DNA from: Amoebidium appalachense
Lineage: Eukaryota; Protista; Ichthyosporea
Reading direction: 5' to 3'
Assembly (NCBI GenBank): GCA_963693365.1
Contig: CAVNZM010000008.1
Location: 2,294,001-2,358,000, forward strand
Length of the DNA stretch: 64,000 nt
The notes beneath the pieces are model-generated. The model saw nothing but the letters and a program-made list of their open reading frames with translations. It was not told where the DNA came from and searched no databases. The position numbers and the translations under genes are program-made. This document shows, one piece after another, positions 16,337 to 64,000 of this stretch; position 1 is the stretch's first letter; every line of letters starts with the position of its first letter.

Positions 16337-16410
16337 AAAATTAGCCCACATATCCGAAATCTTCGTCATTTACATGTATTCACAGAGCATTTTTTCCTAA
16401 ATTTTGGGTG

Positions 16411-17248
16411 GTAGTGAAAGTTGAGCTGCCAAAACTGTGCCCTCCACCCGCCAGCGTGGTACGGCAACACTTCTTCGTCTTTGTCTTGTGGTGGGTTCTT
16501 GAGTGGGTGCTTGTCTGGGATGGCAACAACAATGCACACTGTTTCAAAACTTACGGATTTACAGTCGTGGATTGCCAGCGCCGCAGCTACTCCCTCGGCG
16601 CCTTGACACTTCTTGACCAAGCGCGTGGGGCCGCGCGTGGGGCCGAGGCGCTGCTCTGTTGCAGAGAATGGGAAAAATGCGAAAATCCCTGTGGAATTTC
16701 AAAAATGATTTTGTGATTGATCGGCATACCTGGGCCGTTAACTAATTGCCGAATGCCGATGCCAGGATCAGACTCAGGGTCACAGAGAAAGTCCGACAAG
16801 TTTTGATGCAGCCGCCGCGGAAGAAGAACAACAACAACAACAACAAGAAAACAAAACAAAACAAAAAAAACAAAAAAAAACAAACAAAAAAAAAAAAAAA
16901 AAAAAAAAAAACGCACACACATTACATATTACTTGACGCTAGCAAATATTACATAATAATTGACGCTAGCATCCAGCGTGGAGCATCAATTAACCGCTTT
17001 ATGAATATATCTATTGATGAATAGTAGCCAATAAGTTTATTAATTTTGCGTTCTGATTGGAAGGTATTTATAGGCGCTGGCACCATGGCAATGGGCTTTA
17101 GCCCATCTCTCTGAGTTTGAAGTGTTTTCAAATTCGCATCTTCCTCTGACAAGACACCACCACTAGCAGGAGTAACGATAAGTGTGGGGCTTGGCATGTT
17201 CGAATCAGTGTTTGCGCTCGAGGAGCTGTAGTTGGCGTGAGCTGCCAT
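16411..17248 (-). pseudogene. Rolling-stone-like membrane protein gene, copy 1 (5' fragment only, interrupted)
   Basis: MAAHANYSSSSANTDSNMPSPTLIVTPASGGVLSEEDANLKTLQ matches copy 3. Resumes after a ~540-bp insertion as IHDCKSVSFETVCIV…EEVLPYHAGGWRAQFWQLNFHY, then similarity stops. Confidence 0.75.
16573..17116 (+). mobile_element. Non-autonomous Helentron/Helitron2-like element
   Basis: Absent from paralog copy 3 (empty site ggaTTTgaag). Terminal tgccagcgcc (16573) with subterminal inverted ggcgctggca (17073-17082), then hairpin atgggct-tt-agcccat (17091-17106). Both junctions are in T runs, with no classical TSD. Confidence 0.6.
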
Positions 17249-17551
17249 TATAGCGGGTAGGCGATTGCTGTGGAATAAGCGGAACACAAAAAAACAACAC
17301 AAAAAGGTAAAAAGCATTTGTGGAAGATTAAAGTACGTTGAAGTACTGGTTACAAAAGAGCTGCCTTGCACAAGCACGAATCAAATTGTAGTACACTACG
17401 AACTCCTTTTGTTCTCGCTAAGAAATACTATAAAACATGTGGCTAGTTCACGATGGGCTTATCAGTAGTAGTATGTACATGGGCAACCCATAAAAGGCAA
17501 TAAGCATATGGTGCCGAGGAAAAAATAGTCATCATAGGTGAGCCCATCTAG

Positions 17552-19489
<1,938 letters not shown>

Positions 19490-20814
19490 GATAGCGGGTA
19501 GTCGATTGCTGCTGGAACAGCCCAAACACAATTCGAACAATAGAATGCAGCGAGAATGGTTTTTCAAGCTTTTCAAATGAGTGCGTGTCGGAGTATATAC
19601 TTGTTGGTGCGAGCATACAACCAATCACAAGAGGCTGCAAAGCATTGTCCAATCGTTACAAAGCTGTCAGATCCACGAATCAGAAGGCTTTTGATCAGAT
19701 GACGGTGGTGTTGCAGCACTGCTCAAACAGCATCCTCCCCCCCCCCCCCCCCCCCCCTCCGCCCCCTCCTCCTTCTCCCTCCCTCCCCCCCCCCCCCCCC
19801 CTCCCCACCCCTACTATTTTCTGCTGCTTTTGATCACAGTACACAATCTTCCCTCTCCCTAAATATCACTCTAAGAGTCTACCTATAGCGTGACGATTAC
19901 CTAACTTTGACTGAGTCGCGAATCACGACATTCCACGCGGTCCAATCACACTGCACCGCCGCACCGCATTCCACAGCGCGCAGAGCGCACGGAGCAAAAA
20001 AAAAAAAAAAAAGGTTTAGTTGAGGTAGTTGATAGCACATTAATTATTTACGTAAGGCACCAGAAATTCCATACAAAAATACTAAAAGAAATAATTCTAA
20101 GCTGTTCACGATGGAAAGCGTAAACAAATATAAGAAGACTCCAAAAAGAATGTAAATTCTTGCAAATTGTTGCACGTGGAATCCGGCCCGTGGTCAGAGA
20201 CTCAGAGGGCCGTGCCACCAAGCCCAGTTGCAACTTGAGGCGACGCGTGCGCCGTGTGCCACACCTGGTCTAGCCCCGCTGTGGCCCCAATCCGTGGGTG
20301 TACATACAGAACAACCAGAGGATGTACTCTTGTAGCGTTCAATCTTGTTAATGCTTTACATCATGTACGGCGTTAAATGGTTTAAGTTTTTTGATTGCAA
20401 TGAGGGCACTTCTGGGTCGTGGAATGTAAAGATAGACATTCCAGAGATGACAACATGAGCCTTTTAGATCTTCATCAGGTTAGTACAGCCCAACATTATA
20501 AATTGTTTAATGTACAGAGGGTTTTGGAATCGTGATATTTCTTATGAAAATGGAATAATGTTTCTATAACAGTAATTTTGATTCAAGGGAAAGGAAAAAA
20601 GGAAGGGAAGGGGAAGAGGGTCTCTCAAGATGTGCATGGCAACAAAACCTTAGGAGCCTTCTGATTCGTGGATCTAACGGCTTTTTGGAGCTTTTTAGTC
20701 TCTTTCGATTGGCTGTAATGTCTAATCAACACGTAAATAAGCCTACACCCATTCACTTGTGTTGTTTCTTTGTGTTCCGCTAGCTTATTCCACAGCAATC
20801 GCCTACCCGCTATA

Positions 20815-22888
<2,074 letters not shown>

Positions 22889-23214
22889 CTAGATGGACTC
22901 ACCTCTGGGCACGCTACTAGCATGACCATGATGTTTATTGCCTTTTATAAGTTCCCCATGTACATATTACAGGTCATGAATTGAGCACACCTACCAATAT
23001 GAAATTTCTTAAGGAGAACAAAAAAAGTTCCGATAGCTTACTAATTTAGTGCATTTGCAAAGCAATTCTTTGCAAATAGTGCCGGGTTATAGCTTATGCC
23101 TTCAATTTGACTAATCATTCTAACTGACAACGTGGCACTGTGTGTATCCCGGAACCACCGAAATGTTTTGATAGAAACACTGTGCAAATGCATTTAAATT
23201 ACATCACCCGGAGA

Positions 23215-37248: not shown

Positions 37249-39989
37249 TTTCCATACTGACTCGGTTGGTGTAGTATGTCGATCGATACCACTAGTGATT
37301 CGATTCTGTGGAACATTTATTGGCTGCATGGGCCATGGGTGGTGACTGATATCATCGGCTGGTGTTATGGTGGCATGCCTAGTTACCTGGCACATGCATA
37401 ATCGGTTCATATTAGGGCAAGGTCCGTATCTACCTTTTTCGACGCGATCGAGGTTGATCCGATCGAGGATTTCAAATGAGCCTGACACGGGTATGACTCT
37501 CTCGAATCTATCGATCATAATTACGCAATGAGGGTGTAACGTCATTGGGCCTCTTTTTACGTCACCCCTCGATAACGTCATTATGATCGATAGATTCGAG
37601 ACATTCACAAGCCGTGCCAGGCCTATGTGAAATCCTTGATCGGATCAACCTCGATCGGGTCCAAAATGGTAAATATGGAGGTTGGCATAAGTTTGCTGAT
37701 GTGCTTGGCCTTTTTTGGCTGGCAAGAGTGGTTGGAAGCTATGTGGTGTGTGTTGATATGGCATGGATACGGATATCCGATAGATGAACACCACCACCAC
37801 GCTGATATATGCTCCATACCACAAGAATGTGCTGGATATTTACGTTCTCCTCTATCCCTACCGTGAGCCTGCATGGCATATTTAGCATGTAGACTGAAGA
37901 AACCATCAAAAAACACAGGAAACATGCTTGCGTGCATGTAATTGCTGGCTGGCAAGAAGATGCAGAATGACTGCATTTGTGTATGTGCCTGTGAGTGTGT
38001 GTGCACACATTTTGGGGTGGAGGAGTGTTGGAGGGGAGTGGTGGTGGTTTGAGGGGGAGAGGGGGGGGGGGGGGGGGGGGGAGGGGGGAATGAGGGGAAA
38101 TGGGGTAGGGAAGGGGAGGGGGGGGGGGAGGGGGGGCTTTTTCCTGAGTGGTGGGTGAGCTTCACTTGTATTTTTATTTTAACTTTTATTTTTTTATTAT
38201 ATTTTTTTTTTGCCCTTTGCTGTTCTGACAGGGTGCTTGCCCCTGCAGTTACCGGGGCAGCGCAGGTCAAGTTTCTGACCCAAGACGAAGAAATGCTGCA
38301 CCGTGCCGCGGAACAATTTCTGGGCAAAACTGTAAATTAACCCCCCCCCCCCCCCCCTCTCCCCCTTTCTTTTTCCCTCCCCTTTTTCTCTAAGTCTCAT
38401 AGGTGAAACTCTTATGAACGCGGGAAATATGTCTGCAAAGTCGTCTGCGTTTTCATTGCTGCTCCTGCGCAAACCCGTTAGCGAACCCACCCACTACTCC
38501 CCCCGCCATTTTTTTCCCCCACCTAACATCAAAAATTATAAATCTTAAAATATCCATTCCAAATATTCTTCCTTTTCCGTTTGTGTGCGTGGGTAAAGCC
38601 ATTAACAACCCACTCTTTCCTCTCTTCTTTCCTTTTTTTCAGCTCAGCTCTTAGAAACCCCGTGACTAACTCAAATGTTTTCGTGCCATTCATTGTCTTG
38701 TCACAATCCATTTTCCTTTTCCTGTTCTCCTTTTCCCGGATTTTCGATAGTTGAAGGCATAAGGTTGCCCCATTTTTTTTCTTGTCGTATTTCGTTTTCC
38801 GTTTTTATTTTCCTGGTTTTTGACTGTCTGGACAGGTTGCGGAGGTGCAGAATGTGGTTCTGCAGACGCTGGAGGGCCACCTACGGGCCATCTTGGGGTC
38901 GCTGACTGTGGAGGAGGTCTACCAGGACAGGGAGAAATTCGCACAGCAGGTGTGTGTGTGTGGGCGGGTGTGTGTGTGTTGTGTGTGTGCGCGTGTGCAT
39001 GTGCGTGTGTGCGTACACGTGTGTGTGTGTGTTGTGTGCTTGTGTGTTCTTACTTGTGTCTGTGTCTGTGTGTGTGTGGGGGGGGGGGGGGGGGAGGGGG
39101 GGGGGTTGGCGGGCGGCTGGGAAGAGGAGTAGGGAGGGGCGGAGGGCAGGAGGAGGCTGGCTTTAGTGTGTGTGTGATTGAGTGTGGGTTGGTGTGTGGG
39201 TGGAGTGGGACGATGAGAAGAGCAGAGGAGTTGGAGGGGAAAAGGGAGAGGAGGACTTGAGGAGTTTTGGGAGGTAGCAGCGCGGGGGGTGGGGGGGGGG
39301 GGGGGGGGGGGGGGGGGCTGTGGTGGAGGGACTGCCCCAAATAGGGTGGAGGGGGGAATTGTTTGGGGGAGGGGGGGGGAGGGGGGGGGGGGGGGGGGGA
39401 TGTGGAGGAGAGTCTCATGGAAGGATGTGTGAATGGTATAGTTGGTACCGTAGGGAATGTGGGGGGGGGGAAAGAAAAAGATTAAGAAGAAAAGAGACTG
39501 AATTGAAGTTTTCTGACGGGGAAGAGTGACTGTGGGAGCATATGTAACAACTAGGAACACAGCACAGCCAGAAACACGAAACACACAGTCAAACACATAT
39601 GCACACACATTGTCTGTTTTTCTTCCATTCTTTGCCTTCCGTACCCTTCCGTCGTGTCTCTCTTTCTATCTCCCCCTGTCTTTCCATCTCTCTCTTTCTC
39701 TGCATGCCCCCCCTAACCCCCCTCCCCCCTCTTCCCTTCGCCCTCCTCCAAACACACACACACACACGCACGCACACGCACACACACACACACCTTGACT
39801 GTACCCAAAGGTACGGGAGGTAGCGGCACCCAATGTAGCCCGCATGGGCATCGACATTCTCAGCTTTGTCATTAAAGACGTCAGTGATGAGGTGAAGAAC
39901 CCCCCCCCCCCCCCCCCCCCATGATGCATACTCTGTGTGCGTGCTCTCACAGAAATCTGCAATGTGTTTTTTCCGTAGAAAGGGTCTCT

Positions 39990-40065
<76 letters not shown>

Positions 40066-40370
40066 CCCCCCCCTCCCTCCCTCCCTCCCTCCCTCCCTCC
40101 CTCTCTCTCCCTCTCTCCCTCTCTCTCTCTCTCTCTCGCTTCCCCCGTCCCCCCCGTTCCCCCTCTCTCCTCGCCTGCCCACTCACTAGCTACGGCACAC
40201 ACACACACACACACACGCACACACACACACACAGGTCGACTACCTCAACTCGCTTGGCAAGAAACGTACAGCCGAGGTCAAGCGTGATGCCGACATTGGT
40301 GTGTCGGTGGCTGAGAAGGAGGCTGGCATTAGGGTCGATGCCCCCATCCCCCCCCCCCTCCCCCCCCCCC

Positions 40371-40415
<45 letters not shown>

Positions 40416-40539
40416 CCCCCCCCCCCCCCTTTTTTTTTTTTTTTGGTTTGCAATTCCTACGTTCTGCAAGAGGATAGCAACAGCGGGAGAGGGTAGTGAC
40501 AATTGTCAAGCGGCTACATCCTTGCTGGCACACACATAC

Positions 40540-49907: not shown

Positions 49908-50348
49908 TCAAGCGTTGACAGACACGAAGGCACTGCCGAAGTTTAGCGACTGCGTCTTGGGTGAAGGCGTCTTCGTTTCATTCGCGTTGATTGCATTCTC
50001 ATCCCCAAACACAAGCAGCAATGGGCCTCTCTCTTGTGTGCGGTAACACACACAGCCTGGGTCGACCCACAGCGTCAGCTCCTTGGGCAAACATTCGGAA
50101 AGGTGAGAAATACCGACGATCTCTGCCACCTCCGCAAGCAACGGATCCATCTTAAACGGGTGGATGCGTAGGCAACGGTTTCCTGAACCCCTCAGTGGCT
50201 CTGCTGGGTGCCAGCCTGCGACGTAGCATTTTTCAAACGTGTCGACCAACAGGCGTTGAAACTCGACTACTTTCTCGCCGGAAACCTGGCCGGAGCGCGT
50301 GAGAAGAGTGCCAAGAAAGTTGGCTGCTGCTTCGACTTCTTGGCGCAT
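49908..50348 (-). CDS. BTG: BTG/Tob (APRO) family antiproliferative / deadenylation-adaptor protein, 146 aa
   Basis: N-terminal MRQEVEAAANFL, box A-like YVAGWHPAEPLRGSGNRCLRI..KMDPLL and box B LPKELTLWVDPGCVCYR. Confidence 0.93.
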   Translation of the reverse strand: MRQEVEAAANFLGTLLTRSGQVSGEKVVEFQRLLVDTFEKCYVAGWHPAEPLRGSGNRCLRIHPFKMDPLLAEVAEIVGISHLSECLPKELTLWVDPGCVCYRTQERGPLLLVFGDENAINANETKTPSPKTQSLNFGSAFVSVNA

Positions 50349-51722
50349 TTCGTTAATTTCTGTTGTGAAATAGGGTTACAACTTTGGTAATGACATCACA
50401 AACTATTGAAGAACACCTTGGATTTTGGGAACATGGAACTCAAAAGAAAGACTGAAGACACTCGACACGCTTTGCTCATAGTGAATACTTGTGAAATGGG
50501 TCAGTGGCTTCCTACGCAGTTGGTTTTAAACACTTTTGCGTCATTGGCTTTGATTAAACTAAGAGAGGAGGGTAAACTTTGGAAAAGTGCACTTGTGTAT
50601 CAATTTTTTCGAAAAACCCCGAATAAATGCCATCTATGCTTCGATGGTGGCTATAATTTAAAAAATATAATACAAAAATTAAAGAGAATATTTAAAAACC
50701 CATATAATGTATATGAGAGGCTTCAGAGAACTACCACAATCCTCACACGCTCCGAGTGACACTCGGGAAGCTTTTTGCCCACCTCGGATCACTTATCGAA
50801 AATGATCGCTCCGGGGTAGTGGCAAGCTTGCATTTATAGGTCGGGGCCTATGACAATACTGCAGCCACCAAAAAAGAAAATTAAGATGTATAAGAAGAAA
50901 AAATACATTAATTAAAGATGTCCGTGATCTAATTGATAACTTTTACACTTCAGATGTCACCATATGTCTGTCCAATGCCGGTTTTACACGCCTAATGTGA
51001 CTCTAAGCTATTGGGTTTTGGAAGCGCCAAATATCATCGCTGACATGGTACCAGTCTGATCCAATCACATAAATGGACTATTCCTTATTCTATATTTCCA
51101 CCTTTTGATTGGTTGTTATCGAACCCTAAATCTAAAACGTGATTGCAATTAGTGAGCCAAAAGGGCGATCCATCGTGAGCCAGTCAGCCGGCCGTAGCCA
51201 CTTCTGGGCCAAGACCTCGAGTGACGTCAATGCTATAAAAAGAGTAGGTTACTATGTATAGAAAAGGTGATAATAGCGAGGAAAAAGACCCCGCAAACAC
51301 AAACAACGTTTCAGAAAAAAGTTGGTTTGGTTTACACGGTCTATATTTTGGGGGAAAAGTTGTTTGTATGATAAAACATGAGCCGAAAGGCGAGGGCACC
51401 GAATTTCTGTGTGTGCATAGCCCTCTAATAAATCAAACACTGTCTTCCAGAAATCCTTGTTTGGGCAAATAGGCAAAAGAAAAACCTCTTAACCCCTAAT
51501 AAAGAACCTACATGATACTCGATAACGTATAAGGATTGACTGCCGGGCCAGGTGGGTGTCGTTTTTCAGTCACCAATGTTTGTGGTGGTCACCGGTGGGC
51601 GTAAGTGTGTGGTGTAGGATCAGCTTGTCTGTTTGTCTATATGCGTTGTTCTGCTGCTTTTTTTTTTTCTTTTCATTTCTTTTTTTTTGTGTGTGTGTGG
51701 GTGGGTGGGTGGGTGGGTGGGT

Positions 51723-59729: not shown

Positions 59730-60742
59730 GGGGGGGGGGGGGGCAAGAGCAACTTAGACGCCGGACAGCATTTCCTATTGTGCTCGCTGATTGCAGGACT
59801 TTGGACACATGTGTGTGCAGGTGCAGATGCAGAGGTGAACTACATAGCCCTCCGTATATCAGTGTCCCTGTCTATGTGTGTGTATACAAGAGAGTTGGTT
59901 AGGGAAGGTGTGGGAGGGGGCTTTTGCTTGCACGTCATAGCCCAGTGTGTGTGTATGTGTGCCCGTGGATATGGGTATGCATGTTTGGTGTGTGTGTGCA
60001 TGGAGTTTTGCGTATGATTATGCCTTGTGCGTGTGTGCATGGAATATTGCGTATAATTATGCATGTGTGTGCGTGCACATGACGCAGGCCACCTACTAAT
60101 GGCACGTACACTTCCATGGTCCTGGGTGCGAATACGCGATGATGTTCTTATGCCATTGTTTCCCGAATCGTGCAAGCTCTTTCTCCGGTGTGTATGGATG
60201 CCCATTGGTTGTGGTGCGCGTGCACGATTAAAGACCCTGTTTGCGCGCTATATTCCTTTTACGCACAACAACTACATGTATCCTGCACTGAGTGTCCTAG
60301 GTATTAACAATATCCATTTTTTTCCACACAGGAACTGGACGCACACAGTGTCTACCACCTTCTTCCCGAGATCGAAACACCCACCACACTCGTTTCCGGG
60401 TGCCTGGACTTCCTCACACCATGCTTCCAAATGTACGAAATGGAAGCACTTATGCCCAACGTTCGCCATATCAACCTTCTTTTCCACTCGCACTTTGTCA
60501 TTTTCGAGAACCCACAGGTTCTTATTAAGTGTGTGGACGAAGCGCTTGATGATTATGCAGCTGAAATGGACGCTTTGTACGCTAAAGAGGATGAACATCT
60601 GGAGGAACTGAGGAGCAGCGAGAGCGACATGGAGCACATGTTGACGGGAAGGGATGCAAAGTGTGCTGGAAACAACGAGAAGAAGACTCTGATGGGCGCT
60701 TTGGCTTCTGGGCTCCGCCGCCGCTCCGTTACGGGTGCATAG
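57094..60742 (+). CDS. Membrane-anchored alpha/beta-fold hydrolase (lipase/esterase-like)
   Basis: Exons 57094-57642, 58044-58246, 58712-58859, 60332-60742, phase-consistent. N-terminal hydrophobic segment, oxyanion-region VLANGVG, nucleophile GWSTG, acid SGCLDFLT and His in FHSHFVIFENP. Confidence 0.92.
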
Positions 60743-61563
60743 TTGGTGCTTTTAGTTCAGGATATGTGCAGGCTCTTCTTAGATATATTCAGTCTAGCAG
60801 CTCTTGTAAGTTACTATGCGACGATTTGTTTGCAAATACCATCAAGTTTCGTTTTATATTTTTTTTAAGGGACCTTTGAACTGCAGCTTTCCGCTGCTCT
60901 TATTAGATTTAGTTCATAAATAACCATCCCCCCTCTCCCCTTTCCCCCCCCCCCCCCCCCCCCCCTCCCCTCCCCCGGGGGGAGGGGGGCCTCCCATTCG
61001 ACCACTTTGTTGTTGAGGCATGCACCAAAAGGTCCCAAGCCTAGGCATCGACGTTACTGTACAAGTATAAAAATGTAGTAGTGCCGGTCACTGCTGCAAG
61101 CAAGAAAAACAAAAGTCTCTTAGTCGAACTTCTCGGTATAAGTGCTAAACAAGTTCTAGACCACCATGAAATTTATCTTCATTGTAGAACATTAGCGCTA
61201 AGGAGAAGGGGATGTGTCTGATAGGTGGGAATCAAAATCTTGTGCTACGTGCTACGTGGATAAGTCTTTTTGTTTTTTTGTGTGTGTGTGTGTTTAGACA
61301 AGGAGGGGGGGGGGGGGGGGGGGGGGGGGGGTGAGATTCATTTTCGATTTTTGGAGGTCAGGACTATGTTAGACCCTGGAAGCTGGACGGAGGGAGGGGA
61401 CGAGAGGGGGGGGGGAGATGGAATGGTGAACCTCTGGATGCGGGAATTCGCCTTAATTTTCTTTTTTGGTGTGTGTGCGCGCAAACGTGTTGTATGTGTC
61501 TGTGTGGGTGTCTATATGCATGCGTGTGTGCGTGTGTGTGTGTGTGCGCGTGTGTGCGTGTCT

Positions 61564-61637
<74 letters not shown>

Positions 61638-61654
61638 CACGGTGTGTGTGTGTA

Positions 61655-61802
<148 letters not shown>

Positions 61803-62119
61803 TGTGTGTGTGACAAGTGTGTGCACGCCCGTGCACGTTTGAGTGTGTGTGTGTGTTGTGTGTGAGTGGGGGGGGCGGTGGTTGGTGGGGTATGAGGGAT
61901 GGGTGCATATGGAAAGAAGATCTTGCAGCACATAATTTGCCCCCCTCCCCCCTCCCCCCCTCCCCCCCCCCCCCCCCCCCCCTTTCCGACCCCGGGGAGC
62001 ACAAACCATCCGGCTGGGCCACCCACACCCATGGCCATACCTGCCAGCTTTGTTTTAACCTCAATACTCCACCATTACATGGATATAGCATATCCACACA
62101 CTACCCTCAGTATATCCTT

Positions 62120-62403
62120 TTAACAGAGCACACACCGTATGTACTTCATGTCAACGAAATTTCGGTCATGTCCAGGCTCCGGATATTGACTTTCTATATA
62201 GCGGACTGTTAACCATTGTCGTGGGGTGTTGCCTGGCATGTTAGAATATTGTTCAAGTATCGCAACCAGTGTGCATACGATCAGACCGTGTGCATGCCCT
62301 CAGACCCGCTTGCACACGTGTTGACATGGCAAAGATTACGCTCATTACTCAAAATGGCCCATAGCAAAAAAAAGGCCCCCATAGGTGCTTAGTACAGTAG
62401 CCA

Positions 62404-62443
<40 letters not shown>

Positions 62444-64000
62444 AACAACAAAAAAAAGAAAGAAAGAAAGAAAGGCGCCGTTTAGGCGCACAGGATAATG
62501 TCCATTCGGGGGAGAAACCGAACGCCCCAACACGTGCTTGAGCGCGGCGCCGAGTTTTTTCTGGCCGGGAATTCTTCTGTCGATGTTGTTTGCAGCGGCC
62601 CAGCGCCGCAGCAGCGCAACAAACGTCGTGGTTGTCATGTACATACCCTCGTAGTCATCCCAATCCTCGCACACCTCCTCGCGCCTCCCCATGTCGTGGA
62701 AGAACTCATACTCAACCGGAAGGGGGTCTGTGAGGTCCTGAAGCCTGCGCTTGAGTCCGGTCATAGGCGGCAGAATGCGTACACGATCATTAAGGTCGAT
62801 CCGCATGAGGTAGTGGTAGAGATGCTCTAGCCCGGATGCATCTCCCTCGGTGTAGGCGGCTGCCAGCTCGTTGAAGTAGTCGTGATCCCCAACCCTGGCA
62901 GGGGATACCTCCATGCACGCGTAGCGGCGGTCTGTCCGGGACACGGGAATGGGGTGCTCCTCGTTGCTGAGCAGGATCCAGCGCTCACACGACTTGATGG
63001 TAGTAACGGGCAGTCCCTTTCTCTCCATGGACATCCTGTCGTCCGTGATGAGTGTCTTGAGGTGGTTGGGGATGCGGTGACTCTTGCCATAGGTGACCTA
63101 TGGAAACAGGACGTGTTAGCATGATCTGCTTCATATGAATCTACACCCCCACCCCCCAAACAACATATGCATGCACTTCCAGTGTGTGCATCCGAGCATG
63201 GCGCGCGTGTGTGTAGCGCTTCTAAAGAGATGGGTCTTGGGCGCTTCTGCATGTGTGTGTGTGCGCTAATCCAATTAGCACACAGGCTTCTCACCTCGTT
63301 ACACAGGACCAGCAGCTTGAACGAATAGCCCTCATTGAACCTCGTGTCGATCCGGTGCTCGTTCTCGACGGTGCCAACCAGGTGCATGCCTAGCATCTGC
63401 TTGATGATCGTGCAGAACACATCCTTGCCTGTGCCCTCAATGGAGCGCAGCAGCAACCCGCACTGGGGCTTGCGCTCCGGCACCTGGACAAGGTGAGCGA
63501 GCCACTGCATCAGGAAGTCGAACAAGCGCTCGTCGCGGTTGCAGATGATGTACTTGGTGTGGTAGAGGAAGCGCTGCAGTTTCTCTTCCTCGATTTCAAA
63601 GTTCTCGCGGTAGCGAAAGCGAAAACCTGGAAACATGTTGAAAACGCGGTTGAGGCTGTGCAAGTAGATGTCCCTGCGCACACCGGTTCTTGGCTCGGGG
63701 TCGGAGGGGTCGAAGACAAGATGGGCATAGGTGAGCCGGCGGCCACTGGAGAGGTAAAGGGTGCCGCGCAGGGGTGGCTGGGGGTCCCCGTCTTCGTTTG
63801 GGGGCTGTGGAAACTCAAAGGCCTCGAGAAATACGCGGACCTGGTCACGTGTCTTGAGCTCAAACGTAACAGGGAGGCCGTCGATGTTGCGCGTTTTGTG
63901 GATGAATGCATTGGGGGTTGCTACATAGGCAATGTGCTTGCTGATGTAGTCGCACACCTCTTGTTCGCTCCATGCATGTCTGCTCCTGCACACATCGGGA
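62120..64000 (-). CDS. Virus/phage-type SF3 primase-associated helicase (D5/NrS-1-like) with spliceosomal introns; 5' end beyond the window
   Basis: FNMFPGF, QWLAHLVQVPERKPQCGLLLRSIEGTGKD (Walker A), LLVLCNE (Walker B), LKTLITDDRMSMERKG, ILLSN (sensor) and DRRY (Arg finger). A phase-0 GT-AG intron at 63294..63098 joins the two supplied ORFs. Probable GC-AG intron at 62478..62233; the 3' end is uncertain. Confidence 0.85.

What the first reader, a model, noticed from the sequence alone, without database searches (positions are those of the whole stretch)
62120..64000. Virus-type primase-helicase gene that has acquired spliceosomal introns
Seen: SF3 helicase motifs are split right after Walker B by a clean 197-nt GT-AG intron, with no disabling lesions in the visible part, next to ordinary host genes. 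Known: this helicase class is typical of phages, Polinton-like viruses and giant viruses, and recent endogenous viral inserts are generally intron-poor. Inference: either a domesticated viral replication gene or the replicase of an undescribed intron-bearing self-replicating mobile element whose body lies right of the window. No capsid, integrase or terminus is visible here.
Basis: partly seen in the sequence, partly recalled or inferred. Interest (0 to 1): 0.75.

Follow-up and report, generated by a model that had tools for sequence, protein, structure and literature searches.

The report
High-copy viral helicase with an intron
This is a cut-off copy of a repeated piece of DNA whose virus-type helicase gene carries a host-style intron that the high-copy family sequence shares, so it is likely the replication gene of an undescribed integrating DNA virus or transposon of a protist, not a tamed host gene.

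Summary
The intron is real: 197 nt, GT-AG, phase 0, at 63098-63294 (minus strand), right after Walker B; the two exons match consecutive residues of relatives (P0004 31-267, 268-465). The helicase is NrS-1/DUF5906-type SF3, and its closest relatives are stand-alone ~460-500-aa proteins, so a fused primase is unlikely. It is not a domesticated gene: in public DNA runs the gene lies at about 19-61 times the depth of the flank beside it, with several diverged subfamilies; the high-copy contig carries the intron; all 5 coding differences from it are synonymous. This copy is damaged: it leaves the family sequence at 62395-62480 and lacks the conserved C-terminal tail. The family sequence runs at least ~750 nt right of the window. 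The protein falls in a well-supported, unnamed 15-row clade with no member among 151 loci fetched from viral, metagenome and prokaryote collections. The element's class is not shown. Most likely (about 50%) it is a Polinton-like/mavirus-related integrating virus, where stand-alone DUF5906 helicases are known partners of pPolB; a capsid-less giant transposon is the main rival (about 30%). No spliced read was seen. New variant of a known kind.

The parts
63295..64000 (-). Exon A of the SF3 helicase (open at the window edge): N-terminal/collar region, Walker A (SIEGTGKD, 63421-63444) and Walker B (LLVLCNE, 63295-63315). About 30 more codons are expected beyond 64000.
   Evidence: motif names from my own knowledge, positions matched to NrS-1 through the family profile
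63098..63294 (-). 197-nt phase-0 GT-AG spliceosomal-type intron at an AG|GT site; branch-like CTAAC; host-like CA/G-run content; spanned by the high-copy family contig
   Evidence: table 8 (X1 record 4, 62952-63351, depth 52.7, 1 difference); no stable fold (z 0.33), no Rfam match
62481..63097 (-). Exon B: motif B', sensor 1 (ILLSN, 62963-62977), arginine finger (DRR, 62924-62932) and most of the C-terminal winged-helix-like domain
   Evidence: motif names recalled
62395..62480 (.). Break zone: C-run plus A-rich tract where this copy leaves the family sequence; exact point not resolved (the tool skips this repeat)
62345..62473 (-). Run-on of the open frame through low-complexity and flank DNA to a stop at 62345-62347; not part of the family protein
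61990..62394 (.). Single-depth flank (host intergenic DNA); holds the 59-codon ORF 62120-62299, which is not a helicase exon by profile
   Evidence: depth X5 18.7, X17 9.27, X2 3.6 on part of it, X1 0

Best explanation
The window ends in a 3'-truncated copy of a high-copy DNA repeat whose intron-split gene encodes an NrS-1/DUF5906-type SF3 helicase, likely stand-alone, and likely the replication helicase of an integrating Polinton-like or mavirus-related virus. Shown: intron position and signals, helicase family, high depth against the flank, subfamilies, intron inside the high-copy contig, loss of the C-terminal tail in this copy. Inferred: the element is transcribed in the nucleus by host polymerase II and spliced by the host spliceosome (the downstream exon is under purifying selection and is out of frame without splicing); the protein forms a hexameric ring that unwinds the element's DNA for a separately encoded polymerase, by analogy a protein-primed PolB; new copies integrate and most then decay, as this one has. 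The intron was likely gained once in the element's lineage at an AG|GT site before its recent spread, because relatives have an unbroken frame there. Untested: polymerase, integrase, capsid and terminal repeats, all of which would lie outside the window.
For: Depth of gene over flank in the same run: X5 1137.2/18.7 = 61, X2 68.1/3.6 = 19, X17 single contigs 257-397 over 9.27 = 28-43; X1 (1.85 Mb of contigs in all) holds the gene at 57.5 and none of the flank. 20 of 24 listed runs hold 0.69-0.83 of the words, under three organism labels. Diverged subfamilies at X5 depth 120-328. All 5 coding differences between this copy and the main X1 contigs are synonymous (P about 0.001-0.002 if neutral), plus 1 intronic; of the rows shown, 7 of 7 and 12 of 19 changed codons are synonymous in two subfamilies. 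15-row clade with SH-aLRT 100 (65 rows) and FastTree 1.0 (170 rows); most members are 460-503 aa. Model of P0004 (pLDDT 85) matches the helicase-only part of NrS-1 over its whole length (6K9C, E 5e-19). DUF5906 is the commonest partner domain of pPolB in group 1 mavirus-related elements (PMC13215967 section 7); stand-alone SF3 helicases beside pPolB are charted in polisuviruses.
Against: No pPolB, capsid, integrase or terminal repeat was seen; none of 151 loci from IMG/VR, JGI metagenomes and GTDB holds a clade member (best profile score 234 bits; the clade members outside the profile score 297-582), so the gene content of the element is unknown. Endogenous viruses of this type are described as intron-less (PMC10120064 methods). 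Two clade members (P0007, P0163) carry an N-terminal domain that looks HUH-like, which points away from a pPolB partner (scores 0.83-0.86, a lead only). Depth of contigs is a rough measure and cannot tell integrated from episomal copies. No read or contig bridges the break zone.
Confidence: 0.5

Rival explanations
1. Helicase of a capsid-less integrating element: either a giant transposon of the Plavaka/tyrosine-recombinase type described in Amoebidium, or a new small replicon in which the SF3 helicase opens an origin for host polymerases, as papillomavirus E1 does.
For: An intron and dozens of near-identical copies fit a nuclear transposon. [quoted passage not shown] A capsid-less fungal lineage lies within the DUF5906-bearing pMVRE group 1. 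P0007/P0163 have an N-terminal domain whose nearest Atlas clusters are Viral_Rep, Rep_OBD, Gemini_AL1 and PPV_E1_DBD.
Against: The HUH reading is weak: Atlas scores are under 0.9 and the fold was low-confidence (pLDDT 42). The window's nearest relative P0004 lacks that domain. The passages and supplement text I searched name no helicase for the Plavaka repeats (figure pages are pictures and were not readable).
Confidence: 0.3
2. Fragment of an endogenized giant virus (Nucleocytoviricota), the gene being a D5-like helicase.
For: Structural neighbours include giant-virus and virophage helicases (Iridovirus LCIVAC01, Hyperionvirus, Satyrvirus, Qinghai Lake virophage). Some giant-virus insert genes keep introns (KDM4-like genes).
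Against: Giant-virus D5 is an AEP-SF3 fusion; this clade is mostly helicase-only. Dozens of copies about 99.6% alike do not fit inserts described as highly divergent from each other. Viral matches are only 17-23% identical.
Confidence: 0.08
3. The high depth comes from a persistent episomal virus or plasmid in the cultures; the window holds one integrated scrap or an assembly chimera joined at a homopolymer.
For: The junction lies in a C-run/A-run that no contig bridges; the gene lies near the window's edge; depth ratios differ between runs (19-61).
Against: The same variants and subfamilies recur in X1 and X5 (2020 and 2011, different organism labels) at similar proportions (57.5:10.5:9.2 and 1137:165:162); the low ratio in X2 rests on a 162-nt flank contig at depth 3.6, near the assembly floor.
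Confidence: 0.08
4. Domesticated single-copy host gene of viral origin that gained an intron after insertion.
For: Host-like splice signals (CTAAC branch site as in the neighbouring hydrolase intron); lies next to host genes; synonymous-only differences.
Against: 19-61 times flank depth, several subfamilies, intron present in the high-copy contig, C-terminal tail lost here; GC3 0.73-0.77 against 0.58-0.62 in three host exons.
Confidence: 0.04

Closest known systems
NrS-1 polymerase C-terminal helicase (PDB 6K9C/6K9E/6LRB); Pfam DUF5906 (PF19263)
   Same: Same SF3 subfamily: profile hit E 4e-26, whole-length fold match of the relative P0004, same Asn-Glu Walker B ending, GxGK, SN and DRR motifs.
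   Different: NrS-1 is a phage primase-polymerase-helicase fusion; this clade is mostly helicase-only, 16% identical in the structural alignment, sits in a eukaryotic nuclear genome and has an intron.
pPolB-carrying mavirus-related elements, group 1 (PMC13215967) and other Polisuviricotina with stand-alone SF3 helicase (10.64898/2026.10.13.758929)
   Same: Stand-alone DUF5906/SF3 helicase; many integrated copies in protist genomes; truncated copies expected.
   Different: No pPolB, TIR, integrase or capsid seen here; no introns mentioned in the passages searched (0 occurrences in PMC13215967); no named member of these elements was among the 30 proteins I looked up by cluster, and sequence kinship to them was not tested directly.
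Amoebidium appalachense giant repeats: adintoviruses (44 in the reference genome), GEVEs and Plavaka repeats (PMC11244446)
   Same: Intron-rich unicellular holozoan host with many integrated, partly truncated viral or giant-transposon copies; the window's host genes would fit such a host (inference).
   Different: Those repeats are described as having few or no introns, apart from KDM4-like genes; no helicase of this type is named in the text I could search. That the window is Amoebidium is not shown.
Introner-bearing eupolintoviruses of dinoflagellates (PMC12166617)
   Same: Precedent for intron-type insertions inside integrated Polinton-like viruses.
   Different: There most are young introner insertions into single copies; here one intron is shared by the high-copy family in a core replication gene under purifying selection, and I found no sign that it is an introner (no second copy in the window).

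Membership tests
NrS-1-type SF3 helicase (DUF5906) | Pfam PF19263 domain above cut-off | tested here: met
   Exon B 32.8 bits (cut-off 27.6), exon A 23.6 bits on the other half of the model; P0004 73.5 bits
NrS-1-type SF3 helicase (DUF5906) | Walker A, Walker B, B', sensor 1, arginine finger intact | tested here: met
   motif names recalled
NrS-1-type SF3 helicase (DUF5906) | Hexameric ATP-driven unwinding | not testable with these tools
   Needs an assay
D5/P4-type primase-helicase fusion | N-terminal primase (AEP, PolA or TOPRIM) domain in the same protein | tested here: inconclusive
   The 5' end lies beyond the window. Nearest relatives P0004, P0005, P0006 start 28-41 residues before the match and have no primase domain; a further upstream exon cannot be excluded
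Polisuviricotina (Polinton-like, mavirus-related) | Double jelly-roll capsid and A32-like ATPase genes | not testable with these tools
   No genome held; no clade member with context
Polisuviricotina (Polinton-like, mavirus-related) | pPolB or other polymerase beside the helicase; RVE or tyrosine-recombinase integrase; terminal inverted repeats | not testable with these tools
   Would lie outside the window; only low-complexity inverted repeats among the 25 shown of 260 in 60742-64000
Polisuviricotina (Polinton-like, mavirus-related) | Multi-copy presence with variant subfamilies | tested here: met
   (not specific to this group; integration of the other copies not shown)
Domesticated host gene | Single copy and intact | tested here: not met
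Spliceosomal (U2) intron | GT donor, branch site, AG acceptor, removal restores homology | tested here: met
Spliceosomal (U2) intron | Spliced transcript observed | tested here: inconclusive
   No RNA holder listed; two presumed RNA runs laid nothing
HUH-SF3 replicator (CRESS Rep, E1-like) | HUH or origin-binding domain N-terminal to the helicase | tested here: inconclusive
   Only for the sister proteins P0007/P0163: Atlas 0.83-0.86, model pLDDT 42; P0004 has no such extension

The most novel reading that the evidence does not exclude
A new class of capsid-less, nuclear, self-amplifying DNA element of protists whose only replication protein is a spliced NrS-1-type SF3 helicase (fused in sister lineages to a dead HUH origin-binding domain, the papillomavirus E1 design) that recruits host polymerases; it has spread to dozens of copies per genome and has been missed because viral-element surveys use intron-blind gene callers.
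Probability: 0.2. Interest if true: 0.8.

Novelty: new variant of a known kind. Interest (0 to 1): 0.52.

Why it matters
Surveys of integrated DNA viruses in protists call genes with prokaryotic tools on the premise that these elements have no introns (PMC10120064 methods). A recently spread family with a fixed intron in its core replication gene would be partly invisible to them, and it would show that the element's cycle runs through host nuclear transcription and splicing. The helicase clade has no described member in my searches, and a family of dozens of near-identical copies makes the element easy to delimit in an existing long-read assembly.

Tried and rejected
No genome is held for the window, so copies could not be counted directly. 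No RNA holder listed; presumed RNA runs X22 and X23 laid 0 contigs: no evidence either way. Context searches for clade members found none: viral contigs with P0001 and A2 (0 relatives), A3 (1 locus), A4 (46), A5 (8); metagenome contigs with A2 (0) and A5 (27); genome contigs with A2 (0) and A4 (69); all 151 loci are outside the clade by score, and 25 of the first 82 were placed outside it on the tree. A second intron with a last exon at 62120-62299 was considered and rejected: that DNA is at flank depth and no frame in the window matches the family's tail profile (best E 0.47, elsewhere). The fold of the P0163/P0007 N-terminal domain was low-confidence and its VIA search gave only Z under 6 to tautomerase folds, no HUH protein among the 50 rows shown: uninformative. 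A CGC/GCG depletion test for Amoebidium-type methylation showed nothing. The BTG search gave no named relative, so the host is not identified. Rfam: 0 matches. Paper searches with no hit. Earlier-findings look-ups with nothing.

Full report
OBSERVATION. On the minus strand, a frame open from the window edge to 63295 ends in LLVLCNE and is followed by GTGAG; 197 nt later a CTAAC branch-like site, a pyrimidine tract and CATAG precede a second frame starting VTYGKSH at 63097. Pfam DUF5906 model positions 1-54 fall in the first exon and 65-114 in the second; PHROG primase family 1156 is hit by both, in order; exon B hits the NrS-1 helicase structures. BLASTP places the exons on consecutive residues of P0004, P0005, P0006, P0013 and P0157 with no gap. 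The intron length is 2 mod 3, so without splicing sensor 1 and the arginine finger are lost. Its signals resemble those of the neighbouring host hydrolase gene. The observation of a clean intron is right.

THE PROTEIN. A full HMMER scan of 1.84 billion representatives with exon A gave 3 hits at E<=1e-30 and 198 at 1e-10; among the 14 best, 11 are 341-503 aa and match from about residue 25-50. The best, P0004 (501 aa, 51-54% identical), folds with pLDDT 85 and matches the helicase-only C-terminal region of NrS-1 along its whole length. Of 30 proteins looked up by cluster, none of the clade has an informative name; they come from Logan and ENA assemblies, and one (P0010) is a low-quality model in a Daphnia sinensis assembly. 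Trees put the window protein with P0004, then P0005, inside a 15-row clade: FastTree 1.0 on 170 rows and SH-aLRT 100 on 65 rows (ten redundant or partial rows were left out before building; no named mavirus, Maverick or giant-virus protein was available, so the clade's sister is unknown). So 'primase-helicase' is probably wrong: it is likely a stand-alone helicase, though the 5' end is outside the window.

COPY NUMBER. 20 of 24 listed runs hold 0.69-0.83 of the words of 62400-64000, among them runs with only 1-3 Mb of contigs. Laid on 61990-62700, the flank has depth 18.7 (X5), 9.27 (X17), 3.6 (X2, part of it) and 0 (X1), while the gene has 1137, several hundred, 68 and 57.5: ratios 61, 28-43 (single contigs) and 19. 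The tool warns that contig depth is no copy number; I use it only as a ratio within one run and read it as 'dozens'. Diverged subfamilies appear in both X1 and X5 in similar proportions. The main X1 contigs differ from the window at 6 places in 1,511 nt: 5 coding, all synonymous (neutral expectation 0.0006-0.0018), and 1 in the intron. In two subfamilies 7 of 7 and 12 of 19 changed codons are synonymous; these come from the 40 rows shown of 119 and from pieces at least 80% alike, so they lean to conserved parts. The family, both exons included, has been under purifying selection, which in turn implies that the intron is spliced (inference).

THE INTRON BELONGS TO THE FAMILY. The high-depth X1 contig spans the whole intron with one difference. 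A contig at X5 depth 328 has small indels inside it, and one at depth 120 matches both intron ends and skips the 178 nt between (what lies between is not known), which suggests the same intron in diverged subfamilies. Relatives from other sources have an unbroken frame here, so a gain in this lineage is likely; whether P0004 is genomic or a transcript is unknown.

THIS COPY IS CUT. It keeps 19 residues after the last helix motif against 28-49 in the 9 of 12 relatives where my pattern matched; the tail with the nearly invariant Tyr is nowhere in the window. No contig bridges the break, so an assembly chimera is not excluded. To the right, family contigs reach about 64,757-64,771.

HOST. BTG, an animal-like flotillin-2 exon, a weak bZIP and a four-exon hydrolase lie in intron-rich, microsatellite-rich, gene-dense DNA. 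This would fit a unicellular relative of animals such as an ichthyosporean; that is inference, and a direct search did not name the host.

HOW IT LIKELY WORKS. See Best explanation: a host-spliced, stand-alone SF3 ring helicase serving the element's own replication, most likely with a separate pPolB in a Polinton-like or mavirus-related integrating virus (0.5); rivals are a capsid-less giant transposon or new replicon (0.3), a giant-virus fragment (0.08), an episome with a scrap or chimera (0.08), a domesticated gene (0.04). Against the first: no such gene was seen, no clade member with context was found in 151 loci, and two sisters have an HUH-like N-terminal domain (lead only).

LITERATURE. 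PMC11244446: abstract, passages, sections 7 and 10, searchable supplement text (figure pages not readable, and fig. S4 may show the gene content that bears on this). PMC13215967: passages, sections 6 and 7, term search of 8 supplements (Amoebidium 0 occurrences). 10.64898/2026.06.19.733378, 10.64898/2026.10.13.758929, PMC12166617, PMC12220804, PMC10120064: passages only; preprint supplements were not seen. Seven searches found no paper describing a spliceosomal intron in a DUF5906/SF3 helicase of an integrated element; the library lacks most subscription papers. Introner insertions in integrated eupolintoviruses (PMC12166617) and intron-bearing KDM4-like genes in giant-virus inserts (PMC11244446) are precedents for introns in such elements.

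VERDICT. A real, ordinary-looking intron in the helicase gene of a young multi-copy element; this copy is a broken one. The helicase clade and the family-wide intron appear undescribed; the element class is open. New variant of a known kind, interest 0.52.

Noticed in passing
P0007 and P0163, residues ~30-150: Two members of the helicase clade carry an N-terminal domain with HUH-like spacing (W-x-hydrophobic strand, T-A-H, and Trp where Tyr is expected; reading by eye) whose nearest Atlas clusters are CRESS Rep, Rep_OBD and papillomavirus E1 DBD; possibly a dead HUH origin-binding domain fused to an NrS-1-type helicase.
   Followed up: partly
P0010 (KAI9549604.1): A clade member lies in a Daphnia sinensis assembly on a 183-kb contig; it may be a true insert or come from an attached protist. 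Not checked.
   Followed up: no
window 16410-22970: Nested inverted and direct duplications of 0.1-1.5 kb at 77-97% identity (e.g. 17468-18904 vs 22970-21515, 80%), with no Pfam match in the 5 ORFs tried from 16369-22395; an unannotated local repeat or small gene family.
   Followed up: partly
window 49914-50350 (-): Single-exon BTG/Tob family gene (Pfam PF07742, E 8e-29); only one relative at E<=1e-25, 46% identical, unnamed.
   Followed up: partly
window 38053-40474 (+): Exons of an animal-like flotillin (best match flotillin-2).
   Followed up: partly
window 37412-37690: A 280-nt self-complementary stretch (78% to its own reverse complement), MITE-like.
   Followed up: no
L059:1-6869: Metagenome contig with a DUF5906 helicase next to a telomere resolvase (ResT/TelK) and an A32-like ATPase: a small eukaryotic-virus-like element with hairpin-end machinery; outside the clade.
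   Followed up: no
ESM Atlas, rank 23: A 386-aa DUF5906 cluster that is 99% eukaryotic, mostly Parabasalia, resembles P0004 by features; likely the Trichomonas Maverick helicases (recalled, not tested).
   Followed up: no
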